Below are positions 1,023 to 2,922 of a DNA stretch of 6,413 nt, piece by piece; the stretch's first letter is position 1, and every line of letters starts with the position of its first letter. A program made the translations under genes and the position numbers. A model generated the notes under the pieces. It did no database searches. It was not told the origin of the DNA and saw only the letters and a list, made by a program, of their open reading frames with translations. The DNA lies in the IMG/VR virus record IMGVR_UViG_2534682295_000008; one strand, given 5' to 3'. This stretch comes from a virus. Its lineage: Duplodnaviria; Heunggongvirae; Uroviricota; Caudoviricetes.

Positions 1023-2922
1023 TATGATGAGCGCTGTCACAACTGCATTACAGCCCCTGATAAGGGCATTGCCGGTGACGCCAGTTGAATGGGCTGATCA
1101 AAATTATTATCTGCCTAAAGAATCTTCATATGGTGAGGGCGAATGGAAAACGCTGCCATTCCAGATCGCCATCATGAACAGTATGGGGAATGATCAGATC
1201 CGCACTGTTAATCTGATTAAATCTGCCCGTGTTGGCTATACAAAGATGTTGCTGGGGGGGGGCGGGTATTTTATTGAGCATAAATCCCGAAACAGTCTGC
1301 TTTTTCAGCCCACGGATTCTGCCGCTGAAGATTTTATGAAGTCTCACGTGGAGGCGACGATTCGGAACGTGCCATGCCTGAAAGACCTTTCCCCATGGCT
1401 GGGTCGTAAACATCGTGACAATACTCTCACGCTGAAACGCTTTTCATCGGGCGTCGGTTTCTGGTGCCTGGGCGGCGCTGCCGCCAAAAACTACCGTGAA
1501 AAATCCGTTGACGTGGTCTGCTATGACGAACTTTCCTCGTTCGAGCCGGATGTCGAAAAAGAGGGCTCGCCAACCCTGCTGGGGGATAAGCGTATTGAGG
1601 GGTCGGTGTGGCCAAAATCCATTCGCGGCTCGACGCCTAAAATCAAAGGCACCTGCCAGATCGAAAAAGCCGCTAACGAGTCGGCGCATTTTATGCGTTT
1701 TTATGTGCCCTGCCCGCACTGTGGGGAGGCGCAGTATCTGAAATTTGGCGATGAGTCCACGCCTTTTGGGCTTAAATGGGAGAAGGACAGCCCTGAAAGT
1801 GTTTTCTACCTCTGTGAACATCATGGCTGCGTGATCCATCAGTCTGAACTGGACCAGAGCAACGGGCGGTGGATCTGTGAAAACACGGGCATGTGGACCC
1901 GTGACGGTCTGACGTTTTTCAGCGCCCGGGGTGATGAAATTCCGCCGCCGCGCTCCATCATGTTCCATATCTGGACGGCGTACAGTCCGTTCACCACCTG
2001 GGTACAGATTGTCTATGACTGGCTGGATGCACTGAAAGATCCCAACGGCCTGAAAACCTTTGTGAACACCACGCTGGGCGAGACCTGGGAAGAGGCCGTG
2101 GGCGAAAAACTCGATCACCAGGTACTGATGGATAAGGTGGTGCGTTACACGGCGGCGGTGCCTGCCCGGGTGGTTTATCTGACGGCGGGCATTGACTCGC
2201 AGCGAAACCGTTTTGAGATGTATGTCTGGGGATGGGCTCCGGGAGAGGAAGCCTTTCTGGTGGATAAAATCATCATTATGGGGCGTCCTGATGAGGAAGA
2301 GACGCTGTTACGTGTGGATGCGGCGATCAACAAAAAATACCGCCATGCGGATGGCACCGAAATGACTATTTCCCGTGTCTGCTGGGACACCGGGGGGATC
2401 GATGGTGAAATTGTTTATCAGAGATCAAAAAAACACGGTGTTTTCCGGGTGCTGCCGGTAAAAGGCGCATCTGTCTATGGCAAGCCGGTGATCACCATGC
2501 CAAAAACCCGCAATCAGCGGGGCGTGTATCTGTGTGAAGTGGGAACGGACACCGCAAAAGAAATTCTCTATGCCCGTATGAAAGCCGATCCCTCGCCTGC
2601 GGATGAAGCCACGTCGTATGCCATCCGTTTTCCTGATGATCCGGAGATTTTTTCGCAGACAGAGGCGCAGCAACTGGTGGCGGAAGAGCTGGTGGAGAAG
2701 TGGGAAAAAGGAAAGATGCGTCTGCTGTGGGATAACAAAAAGCGGCGTAACGAAGCGCTGGACTGCCTGGTGTATGCCTACGCGGCATTACGTGTGTCCG
2801 TGCAACGCTGGCAGCTTGATCTGGCTGTACTGGCAAAATCCCGGGAAGAAGAGACGACCCGGCCAACCCTGAAAGAACTGGCAGCGAAGCTGTCCGGAGG
2901 AGTGAATGGTTACAGTCGCTGA
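994..2922 (+). CDS. A: Terminase large subunit (lambda gpA-like; ATPase/translocase plus endonuclease)
   Basis: The track ORF is 937..2922 with a TTG start, but the lambda gpA N-terminus (MNIS...) aligns to the ATG at 994 (MNISEQQL...). Strong collinear similarity to gpA throughout: VEWADQNYYLPKES, KSARVGYTKMLL, FWCLGG.AKNYREKSVDV, GDKRIEGSVWPKSIRGSTPK, CPHCGE.QYLKFGD, FHIWTAYSPFTTWVQIV, KTFVNTTLGETWE, YLTAGIDSQ, CWDTGGID, SKKHG.FRV.P.KGASVYGKPV, WDNKKRRNEALDC. It overlaps the Nu1-like stop by 29 nt, as in lambda. Confidence 0.95.
   Translation: MNISEQQLNNMMSAVTTALQPLIRALPVTPVEWADQNYYLPKESSYGEGEWKTLPFQIAIMNSMGNDQIRTVNLIKSARVGYTKMLLGGGGYFIEHKSRNSLLFQPTDSAAEDFMKSHVEATIRNVPCLKDLSPWLGRKHRDNTLTLKRFSSGVGFWCLGGAAAKNYREKSVDVVCYDELSSFEPDVEKEGSPTLLGDKRIEGSVWPKSIRGSTPKIKGTCQIEKAANESAHFMRFYVPCPHCGEAQYLKFGDESTPFGLKWEKDSPESVFYLCEHHGCVIHQSELDQSNGRWICENTGMWTRDGLTFFSARGDEIPPPRSIMFHIWTAYSPFTTWVQIVYDWLDALKDPNGLKTFVNTTLGETWEEAVGEKLDHQVLMDKVVRYTAAVPARVVYLTAGIDSQRNRFEMYVWGWAPGEEAFLVDKIIIMGRPDEEETLLRVDAAINKKYRHADGTEMTISRVCWDTGGIDGEIVYQRSKKHGVFRVLPVKGASVYGKPVITMPKTRNQRGVYLCEVGTDTAKEILYARMKADPSPADEATSYAIRFPDDPEIFSQTEAQQLVAEELVEKWEKGKMRLLWDNKKRRNEALDCLVYAYAALRVSVQRWQLDLAVLAKSREEETTRPTLKELAAKLSGGVNGYSR

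What the first reader, a model, noticed from the sequence alone, without database searches (positions are those of the whole stretch)
1254..1266. G9 homopolymer (gggggggggcggg) inside the terminase large-subunit ATPase region
Directly after the conserved KSARVGYTKMLL segment the gene contains a run of nine G (1254..1262) followed by cggg, encoding GGGG where lambda has VYAY (MLLGVYAYFIEH). Runs of this length are prone to slipped-strand mispairing and are frequent sites of sequencing or assembly indel errors. A plus or minus 1 change here would truncate terminase and make the prophage packaging-defective, so the reading frame at this point deserves verification. The Gly4 substitution sits next to a presumed nucleotide-binding segment.
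Basis: seen in the sequence. Interest (0 to 1): 0.4.

Follow-up and report, generated by a model that had tools for sequence, protein, structure and literature searches.

The report
Length-variable poly-G tract in prophage terminase
A run of nine G's inside the DNA-packaging (terminase) gene of two near-identical E. coli O157:H7 prophages changes length (8 to 12 G) between strains, so the gene is intact in some strains and cut short in others.

Summary
The G9 run is at 1254-1262, followed by CGGG. It lies in an intact 642-aa lambda gpA-type terminase large-subunit gene (994-2922) and encodes Gly88-Gly91, in the helix directly after the Walker A motif KSARVGYT.

Window 131-6353 is identical to prophage Sp14 of E. 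coli O157:H7 Sakai. Window 768-4950 is identical to Sp4.

Among 5,426 complete E. coli genomes about 300 carry this tract, nearly always in two prophage copies. Exact-allele searches found G8 in about 32 genomes, G9 in about 192, G10 in about 172, G11 in about 32, G12 in one and G7 in none. The flanking 4-6 kb is otherwise identical (0-1 SNP). G8, G10 and G11 copies are annotated "frameshifted" and would give 94-115 aa products.

Repeat assemblies of one strain and Sanger-era genomes agree, so this is real polymorphism and not sequencing error.

The tract is young. Sorbitol-fermenting O157 strain 493/89 has G5-T-G2-T-C (GVVG), some non-O157 strains have G8-T-C (GGVG), and two T-to-G changes at 1259 and 1262 made G9.

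The most likely explanation is a replication-slippage hotspot in largely defective prophages, drifting neutrally. An adaptive on/off switch is not excluded.

The parts
1254..1262 (+). G9 mononucleotide tract, the slippage hotspot. Relatives carry G8-G12 here.
   Evidence: for the window. for allele counts. for verified loci.
1255..1266 (+). Codons for Gly88-Gly91 (GGG GGG GGC GGG), in the alpha-helix that follows the P-loop.
   Evidence: coordinates. (AF2 helix 80-97). (homologs have GVYA, GVVG, GVEA and similar).
1259..1259 (+). Derived T-to-G change (Val89 GTG to Gly GGG). It fuses G5 and G2 into a G8 run.
   Evidence: T in O157:H- 493/89 and O55:H7 DEC5A; G in the GGVG intermediate allele of 97-3250.
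1262..1262 (+). Derived T-to-G change (Val90 GTC to Gly GGC). It extends the run from G8 to G9.
   Evidence: T in 493/89, DEC5A, 97-3250, E2865 and L139.
1219..1242 (+). Walker A motif KSARVGYT (K76-T83) of the packaging ATPase.
   Evidence: The lambda motif KSA-R79-VGYS is given in PMC6379665 Table 1. K76, S77, A78, R79 and G81 are invariant in alignment A1.
1513..1530 (+). Walker B plus catalytic Glu (VVCYD-E179).
   Evidence: Lambda has VAGYD-E179 (PMC6379665).
994..2922 (+). terL (lambda gpA / phage 21 gp2 type), 642 aa, intact in the window.
   Evidence: Sakai ECs_2735.
513..1022 (+). Terminase small subunit (Nu1 type), intact here. Sp4-like copies have ISEc8 inserted at 768-775.
318..329 (+). 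Exact lambda cosN cohesive-end sequence GGGCGGCGACCT, the substrate of this terminase.

Best explanation
The G9 run is a real, evolutionarily young hotspot for replication slippage inside the terminase large-subunit gene of the Sp4/Sp14-type lambdoid prophages of E. coli O157:H7.

Origin. Two T-to-G transversions, at 1259 and 1262, converted an ancestral G5-T-G2-T-C-G3 sequence (Gly-Val-Val-Gly) into G9-C-G3 (Gly4). A G8-T-C (Gly-Gly-Val-Gly) intermediate still exists in other strains.

Behaviour. Once the run reached 8-9 G, gains and losses of one G by slipped-strand mispairing became far more frequent than base substitution. The two prophage copies in O157:H7 strains now carry G8, G9, G10, G11 or G12. 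Only G9 and G12 keep the frame. G8, G10 and G11 end translation after 94-115 residues, upstream of Walker B and of the whole nuclease domain, so they abolish the prophage's packaging enzyme.

Why I think this is mainly neutral (inference). Both prophages are already defective in other functions: nu1 is split by ISEc8 in Sp4, and the major capsid gene is truncated in Sp14. I therefore read the length spread as an unselected stepwise walk, meaning pseudogenisation in progress that can occasionally reverse, and not as a selected switch.

Consequence. The state of the tract still decides whether a strain encodes any terminase for this cos type. It could therefore affect mobilisation of Sp4/Sp14 DNA.

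What is shown: the tract, its polymorphism, its origin and the truncations. What is inferred: slippage as the mechanism, neutrality, and the effect on packaging.
For: 1. Identity. Window 131-6353 is 100% identical to Sakai Sp14, and window 768-4950 is 100% identical to Sp4.

2. Allele counts. Searches with exact 79-84-nt alleles against 5,426 complete genomes gave G7 0, G8 34, G9 194, G10 174, G11 34 and G12 1 genome records. Each count above 1 includes about 2 partial hits. About 300 genomes carry the tract (band arithmetic). The allele counts sum to about 429, so at least about 129 genomes have two different lengths in their two copies, and about 108 have no in-frame copy.

3. Verified loci. 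The Sp14-like copy has G8 (FORC_044), G9 (Sakai), G10 (TW14359, EC4115, BB24-1, NCCP 13894) and G11 (strain 319). The Sp4-like copy has G9 (Sakai, FORC_044), G10 (155, TR01, ERL05-1306, 150, Z1833), G11 (28RC1) and G12 (27_141091). In every case the flanking 4-6 kb shows 0-1 other difference.

4. Annotation. PGAP marks every G8, G10 and G11 copy "frameshifted" and leaves G9 and G12 intact.

5. Reproducibility. Three assemblies of strain 86-24 all have G8. The two spinach-outbreak genomes TW14359 and EC4115 both have G10. Sakai and its laboratory derivatives have G9.

6. Origin. The Sp14-like terL of O157:H- 493/89 differs from the window at only 5 of 1,929 nt, and two of these are 1259T and 1262T. 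Two of five random substitutions falling within 3 nt of each other has P of about 0.03. The G8-T-C intermediate is found as an exact match in 7 complete genomes. One derivative, E2865, has lost a G and is frameshifted.

7. Defective context. Sp14-like copies have a truncated major capsid gene, and Sp4-like copies have ISEc8 in nu1. Asadulghani 2009 lists multiple defects for both prophages (PMC2669165).
Against: No read-level data could be examined, so individual assemblies may contain homopolymer errors, and within-culture heterogeneity is unknown.

The number of independent slippage events was not counted on a strain phylogeny. Gene conversion between the two copies, or inheritance within large clades, could reduce that number.

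Neutrality is inferred, not tested. G9 is still the most common state. Asadulghani 2009 attributed packaging of Sp4 DNA to the Sp14 terminase, so some selection for an intact copy is possible.

Whether the Gly4 enzyme is active has not been measured. Position 89 is Val, or Ala in distant relatives, in every other allele seen.
Confidence: 0.72

Rival explanations
1. Adaptive phase variation. The poly-G tract acts as a contingency switch that reversibly turns the only terminase for this cos type on and off. This would modulate particle formation and horizontal transfer of the effector- and regulator-carrying Sp4/Sp14 elements, or the cost of induction.
For: A poly-G tract of 8 or more lies in the 5' part of an ORF. 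There are multiple length alleles in both copies. An in-frame G12 exists, showing that the frame can return. In Sakai, Sp4 DNA is packaged although its own nu1 is dead, and the authors attributed this to the Sp14 terminase (PMC2669165). G9 remains the commonest state.
Against: The tract is very young and confined to one lineage. The length distribution is roughly symmetric around 9-10 (G8 about 32, G9 about 192, G10 about 172, G11 about 32), with no visible excess of in-frame lengths. About a third of genomes have no in-frame copy. The Sp4-like copy varies just as much, although its nu1 is already destroyed. Both prophages have other lethal defects.
Confidence: 0.12
2. Sequencing or assembly artefact. 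The true length is constant, and G8, G10 and G11 are homopolymer miscalls in long-read or 454 assemblies.
For: Homopolymers of this length are a known weak point of PacBio, ONT and 454 consensus sequences. One IMG/VR draft carrying G10 (L007) has four other single-base indels in 6.3 kb.
Against: Non-G9 alleles occur in more than half of the carriers, far above any consensus error rate. Independent assemblies of the same strain or outbreak agree: 86-24 three times with G8, and TW14359 and EC4115 both with G10. In the verified complete genomes the tract is the only difference in 4-6 kb. The Sanger-finished Sakai genome shows G9, and TW14359 and EC4115, which I recall as capillary- or 454-era assemblies (not checked here), show G10.
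Confidence: 0.05
3. Out-of-frame alleles are phenotypically rescued. RNA-polymerase slippage or ribosomal frameshifting on the G run would yield some full-length TerL from G8, G10 and G11 genes, so all alleles would remain partly functional.
For: From general knowledge, long homopolymers promote transcriptional slippage, and G GGG GGG has the form of a slippery heptamer. No direct evidence was obtained here.
Against: The tract is not conserved in homologs. The alternative frames end after 6-27 codons with no conserved product. From memory, known bacterial transcriptional slippage sites are mostly A or T runs. This was not tested.
Confidence: 0.05

Closest known systems
Phage lambda gpA and phage 21 gp2 (terminase large subunit, Pfam GpA_ATPase + GpA_nuclease)
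   Same: Same two-domain architecture and residue numbering: Walker A at K76-T83, Walker B VVCYD-E179, upstream nu1 and exact cosN, downstream W, portal and protease genes. The gene is 92% identical in DNA to phage 21 gp2.
   Different: Residues 88-91 are GGGG instead of GVYA (lambda type) or GVEA (phage 21). Only this O157:H7-associated allele has a G9 run. No isolated phage in the phage collection carries it; the best hit is 96.3% identical and has GVAG.
Phase-variable homopolymeric tracts (contingency loci) of Neisseria, Haemophilus and Campylobacter
   Same: A poly-G tract of 8 or more lies inside the 5' part of a coding sequence. One-base gains and losses flip the reading frame, and several length alleles coexist in the population. 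The general mechanism is described in PMC5084427 (listed).
   Different: The host is E. coli, in which such loci are rare. The gene is a terminase of a defective prophage, not a surface or restriction-modification function. The tract is recent and lineage-restricted. There is no sign that in-frame lengths are favoured. Within-culture switching has not been measured.
Homopolymer-associated frameshift pseudogenes among O157:H7 genomes
   Same: Genome comparisons already report tens of frameshifts due to homopolymers between O157:H7 strains (PMC5552260, Table 3). This tract belongs to that class.
   Different: No searched paper names this site. It is multi-allelic (G8-G12), present in two paralogous copies, and its stepwise origin can be reconstructed.
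Defective-prophage complementation in O157 Sakai (Asadulghani et al. 2009)
   Same: Same prophages, Sp4 and Sp14. The paper called the Sp14 terminase intact and proposed that it packages Sp4 DNA (PMC2669165).
   Different: That study looked at one strain, which has G9 in both copies. It could not see that in many other strains one or both terL copies are out of frame.

Membership tests
Lambda gpA-type terminase large subunit | N-terminal GpA_ATPase and C-terminal GpA_nuclease domains | tested here: met
   Pfam PF05876 at 183.8 bits (residues 48-293) and PF20454 at 241.4 bits (residues 324-601). The AF2 model of residues 1-300 matches the T4 gp17, P74-26 and HK97 TerL ATPase domains.
Lambda gpA-type terminase large subunit | Deviant Walker A KSARVGY[ST], and Walker B followed by the catalytic Glu179 | tested here: met
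   KSARVGYT at residues 76-83 and VVCYDE at 174-179. The lambda motifs are taken from PMC6379665 Table 1.
Lambda gpA-type terminase large subunit | Gene order cos - nu1 - A - W - portal - protease | tested here: met
   cosN at 318-329. Nu1, gpW, Phage_portal_2 and Peptidase_S49 are found in order.
Lambda gpA-type terminase large subunit | ATPase and packaging activity of the Gly4 variant | not testable with these tools
   Only indirect evidence exists: Sp4 DNA is packaged in Sakai, and the authors attributed this to the Sp14 terminase.
Simple-sequence contingency (phase-variable) locus | Mononucleotide tract of about 8 or more within an ORF, whose length sets the reading frame | tested here: met
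   G9 at 1254-1262. G8, G10 and G11 truncate the product at 94-115 aa, while G9 and G12 are in frame.
Simple-sequence contingency (phase-variable) locus | Tract-length polymorphism among otherwise near-identical strains | tested here: met
   G8-G12 occur in about 300 complete genomes with 0-1 other differences in 4-6 kb.
Simple-sequence contingency (phase-variable) locus | High-frequency reversible switching within a clonal culture | not testable with these tools
   This needs reads or fluctuation assays. Laboratory derivatives of Sakai and 86-24 kept their tract length.
Simple-sequence contingency (phase-variable) locus | Evidence that the tract or the in-frame state is maintained by selection | tested here: inconclusive
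   The tract is recent. The length spectrum is roughly symmetric, and about a third of genomes lack an in-frame copy. The copy with a dead nu1 varies as much as the other. No phylogenetic test was possible.
Programmed frameshift or transcriptional slippage site | Slippery tract conserved across homologs, with a conserved product in the alternative frame | tested here: not met
   Homologs have GVYA, GVVG, GVEA and similar, with no tract. The alternative frames stop after 6-27 codons.

The most novel reading that the evidence does not exclude
The poly-G tract is a functional on/off switch for the only terminase that recognises the shared Sp4/Sp14 cos site. Its state would then determine, strain by strain and perhaps cell by cell, whether these otherwise defective prophages, which carry pch regulators and effector genes, can be packaged and transferred. 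The 94-115-aa truncated products would keep the N-terminal part of gpA that binds Nu1 (from memory of lambda/21 hybrid studies) and might act as dominant-negative inhibitors of an intact second copy.
Probability: 0.1. Interest if true: 0.65.

Novelty: new member of a known kind. Interest (0 to 1): 0.42.

Why it matters
The work shows that a feature easily dismissed as a likely sequencing error is a real multi-allelic hypermutable site in a major pathogen.

There are three practical consequences. First, frameshifted terL annotations at this site in O157:H7 genomes should not be "corrected" automatically. Second, the two tracts could serve as fast-evolving markers for outbreak subtyping, provided reads are handled with care for homopolymers. 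Third, predictions of which O157:H7 strains can package Sp4/Sp14-type DNA depend on tract length, which differs even between the two copies in one genome.

It is also a clean natural example of how two point mutations can create a slippage hotspot in an MMR-proficient enterobacterium.

Tried and rejected
- A PDB sequence search with TerL found nothing, so the structural context came from an AF2 model and Foldseek.
- IMG/VR and metagenome pattern scans gave only 8 and 1 loci with the tract, too few for a census. The census therefore rests on exact-allele BLAST counts in complete genomes.
- The genome-contig scan gave only 2 loci.
- I tried the A/C SNP at 6304 as a lineage marker for G10. G9 occurs on both backgrounds, so it was uninformative.
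- A per-copy (Sp4 versus Sp14) census was not possible. The copies are identical around the tract, and the distinguishing IS junction lies 480 bp away. Only a sample of loci could be typed.
- Literature searches for a description of this tract found none.
- I first mislabelled the intermediate allele as G7. Recounting with the third base of the Leu codon shows a G8 run, and G7 in E2865.
- I rejected the idea that the window itself carries an error, because it is identical to Sakai Sp14 and Sp4.
- I did not pursue a G-quadruplex reading, because G9-C-G3 offers no proper loop arrangement.
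Full report
**1. Observation**

The window reads ...ACAAAGATGTTGCT GGGGGGGGG CGGG TATTTT..., with the nine G's at 1254-1262 and CGGG at 1263-1266. It is the only G or C run of 7 or more in the 6,413 bases. Dinucleotide-preserving shuffles give 0.10 such runs per window on average, and 14 of 200 shuffles have at least one.

The run lies in ORF 937-2922. The real start is ATG 994, giving MNISEQQ... and 642 aa. Position 1254 is the third base of Leu87. Positions 1255-1266 encode Gly88-Gly91. The frame is open through the tract.

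**2. What the gene and the locus are**

Pfam assigns the protein to GpA_ATPase (residues 48-293) and GpA_nuclease (324-601). The neighbouring genes are Nu1, gpW, a lambda-family portal and an S49 protease. An exact lambda cosN sequence, GGGCGGCGACCT, sits at 318-329.

Residue numbering matches lambda gpA. Walker A KSARVGYT is at residues 76-83 (nt 1219-1242), and Walker B plus the catalytic Glu, VVCYD-E179, is at nt 1513-1530. The lambda motifs come from PMC6379665, Table 1.

An AlphaFold2 model of residues 1-300 has mean pLDDT 74 and pTM 0.70. It places residues 80-97 in one helix that follows the P-loop and precedes strand 101-105. The model matches the ATPase domains of T4 gp17, P74-26 TerL and HK97 TerL. 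No solved structure of a close relative exists by sequence search.

Window 131-6353 is 100% identical to prophage Sp14 of E. coli O157:H7 Sakai (terL is ECs_2735). Window 768-4950 is 100% identical to Sp4, whose nu1 is split by ISEc8 at window 768-775. Only the first 130 bases and the last 60 or so bases of the window differ from these prophages.

**3. What relatives have at the site**

| Allele (after Leu87 CTG) | Residues 88-91 | G-run structure | Where found |
|---|---|---|---|
| GGT GTT TAT GCC type (DNA recalled for lambda; only the protein allele was seen here) | GVYA | no long run | lambda type |
| GGA GTG GAG GCT | GVEA | no long run | phage 21 |
| GGA GTC GCC GGG | GVAG | no long run | PhiR12 phages |
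| GGG GTG GTC GGG | GVVG | G5-T-G2-T-C-G3 | by far the commonest near-identical E. coli allele |
| GGG GGG GTC GGG | GGVG | G8-T-C-G3 | 7 complete genomes |
| GGG GGG GGC GGG | GGGG | G9-C-G3 | this window and O157:H7 |

Across protein homologs, position 89 is Val (Ala, once Asn, in distant ones) and position 90 is variable. Gly at position 89 occurs only in the GGVG and GGGG alleles.

The Sp14-like terL of the sorbitol-fermenting O157:H- strain 493/89 differs from the window at only 5 of 1,929 nucleotides. Two of these are T at 1259 and T at 1262, which is the GVVG allele. Two of five random substitutions falling within 3 nt of each other has P of about 0.03.

The GGVG intermediate (G at 1259, T at 1262) is an exact match in 7 complete genomes, including 97-3250 and an O111:H11 strain. 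One derivative, E2865, has lost a G (G7-T-C) and is frameshifted.

The tract was therefore built stepwise by two T-to-G changes, each of which lengthened a G run.

**4. Tract-length heterogeneity**

I searched 5,426 complete E. coli genomes with 79-84-nt queries that differed only in the number of G's. At these lengths the 99%-or-better identity band means an exact match.

| Tract | Genome records with an exact copy |
|---|---|
| G7 | 0 |
| G8 | 34 |
| G9 | 194 |
| G10 | 174 |
| G11 | 34 |
| G12 | 1 |

Each count above 1 includes about two partial hits, so the corrected figures are about 32, 192, 172 and 32.

- With the G12 query, all G8-G11 alleles and the 7 GGVG records fall in the 95-99% band (306 records). 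About 300 genomes therefore carry the tract.
- Nearly all carriers seen are O157:H7, with two places per genome.
- The allele-presence counts sum to about 429. At least about 129 genomes therefore have different lengths in their two copies.
- About 108 genomes (about 36%) have no G9 copy. This agrees with the evenly spaced sample, where 4 of 10 tract-bearing rows had G10 as the best match.

I fetched 20 loci and measured the run directly.

| Copy | G8 | G9 | G10 | G11 | G12 |
|---|---|---|---|---|---|
| Sp14-like (intact nu1, pchC upstream) | FORC_044 | Sakai | TW14359, EC4115, BB24-1, NCCP 13894 | strain 319 | none seen |
| Sp4-like (ISEc8 in nu1) | none seen | Sakai, FORC_044 | 155, TR01, ERL05-1306, 150, Z1833 | 28RC1 | 27_141091 |

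In each locus that spans the flanks, the tract is the only difference from the window in 4-6 kb, apart from one A/C SNP at 6304. RefSeq annotation marks every G8, G10 and G11 copy as "frameshifted" and the G9 and G12 copies as intact. Predicted products are 94 aa for G10 and 114-115 aa for G8 and G11. All lack Walker B and the nuclease domain.

**5. Real polymorphism or artefact?**

Several facts argue against sequencing error.

- Non-G9 lengths are too frequent to be consensus errors.
- Three independent assemblies of strain 86-24 all give G8.
- The two 2006 spinach-outbreak genomes, TW14359 and EC4115, both give G10.
- Sakai and its laboratory derivatives give G9.
- Two assemblies of 97-3250 both give G8-T-C.
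- Both G9 (Sanger-finished Sakai) and G10 appear in early finished genomes; I recall TW14359 and EC4115 as capillary- or 454-era assemblies but did not check this.

I could not inspect reads, so single assemblies may still be wrong, and within-culture heterogeneity is unknown.

**6. Mechanism**

It is established that mononucleotide runs mutate by slipped-strand mispairing, and that the rate rises steeply with run length. Here at least five length states in each of two paralogous copies have arisen within a clonal pathogen in which the surrounding 6 kb has accumulated at most one substitution. This is the signature of a hotspot.

I infer that the length spread is mostly neutral, for four reasons.

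- The spectrum is roughly symmetric around 9-10, with no visible preference for in-frame lengths.
- The Sp4-like copy, whose partner gene nu1 is already destroyed, varies as much as the Sp14-like copy.
- Sp14-like prophages have a truncated major capsid gene.
- Asadulghani et al. list further defects for both prophages (PMC2669165).

Against pure neutrality, that paper found that Sp4 DNA is packaged in Sakai. The authors attributed this to the Sp14 terminase, which is the Gly4 enzyme encoded in this window. This suggests the G9 allele is active and that the tract state could matter for mobilisation. The adaptive phase-variation reading therefore keeps some probability, about 0.1.

**7. Effect of the Gly4 substitution itself**

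Gly88 and a small residue at position 91 are normal for the family. V90G is at a variable position. V89G is at a conserved hydrophobic position, on the same helical face as the invariant M85 and Y92. This reading is inferred from helical periodicity, not measured. The enzyme may be weakened. Direct assays are needed.

**8. Comparison with known things and novelty**

The gene is an ordinary member of the lambda gpA family. The tract behaves like the homopolymeric contingency tracts of Neisseria, Haemophilus and Campylobacter in structure and population polymorphism. However, within-clone switching and selection, which define that class, could not be shown.

Frameshifts due to homopolymers between O157:H7 genomes are known as a class (PMC5552260). 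I found no paper that describes this site. I file it as a new member of a known kind: a young, multi-allelic slippage hotspot in a prophage terminase gene.

**9. Verdict**

Interest is moderate. The mechanism is conventional. The scale of the polymorphism, its presence in two copies, its reconstructable origin and its possible bearing on prophage mobilisation and strain typing make it worth a short follow-up.

Noticed in passing
window 318-329: An exact copy of the lambda cosN 12-nt cohesive-end sequence GGGCGGCGACCT lies upstream of nu1, so the window starts just left of the prophage cos site.
   Followed up: partly
window 1-130: There are nine mismatches to every Sp14-like copy examined, whereas 131-6353 is identical. 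This looks like a mosaic boundary inside or next to the minus-strand YlcI/YnfO-family gene. No complete E. coli genome matched the whole window at 100%.
   Followed up: partly
window 6354-6413: Similarity to Sp14 and Sp4 ends at about 6353-6359, inside the start of the head-decoration gene. This is a second mosaic junction.
   Followed up: no
window 768-775 (L001 730/3169; L135, L136, L138, L145): This is the ISEc8 (IS66 family) insertion point in nu1 of Sp4-like copies. Both flanks share window 768-775, which suggests an 8-bp target duplication. The insertion is present in strains from Japan, Korea, the UK, the USA, Turkey and New Zealand.
   Followed up: partly
window 6304: An A/C polymorphism here is the only other variable site seen in 6 kb among O157:H7 copies. 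G9 occurs with both bases, and G10 was seen with C.
   Followed up: partly
L077 (IMG/VR UViG_2563366822_000003), aligned to window 1-2723: This is a divergent terL (96.7% identical, 77 mismatches) that also carries the tract as G10. It is identical to the window only between about 1213 and 1508, which suggests the tract segment moved by recombination into another terL background.
   Followed up: no
P0072, P0073, P0077, P0082 (E. coli O145:H25 str. 07-3858 and others): The GGGG allele also occurs in a deleted prophage remnant, where terL (to about residue 235) is fused in frame to a tail (host-specificity-like) sequence. The allele is therefore not strictly confined to O157:H7.
   Followed up: no
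L127 6939-6960, L144 6939-6960 (Sp14-like prophage of TW14359 and EC4115): The major capsid gene downstream of the window is annotated as truncated (missing C-terminus). The prophage cannot build its own heads, whatever the state of terL.
   Followed up: no
L005:1462 vs L079:11055; also L094:1022 and L085:2411: There are other long C runs in related prophage contigs. One has the same context with C9 in one contig and C8 in another (AACAACAAC-Cn-TCAAAAAATCTCAT), so it may be a second length-variable homopolymer.
   Followed up: no
L145 6977-7084 (strain 27_141091): In the genome with the in-frame G12 allele, the adjacent S49 protease gene is annotated as frameshifted. This is further decay of the same prophage.
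   Followed up: no
window 994-1022, 2906-2922, 3109-3112, 4691-4701: Successive packaging and head genes overlap by 4-29 nt (nu1/terL, terL/W, W/portal, portal/protease). This is the lambda-like arrangement that suggests translational coupling.
   Followed up: no
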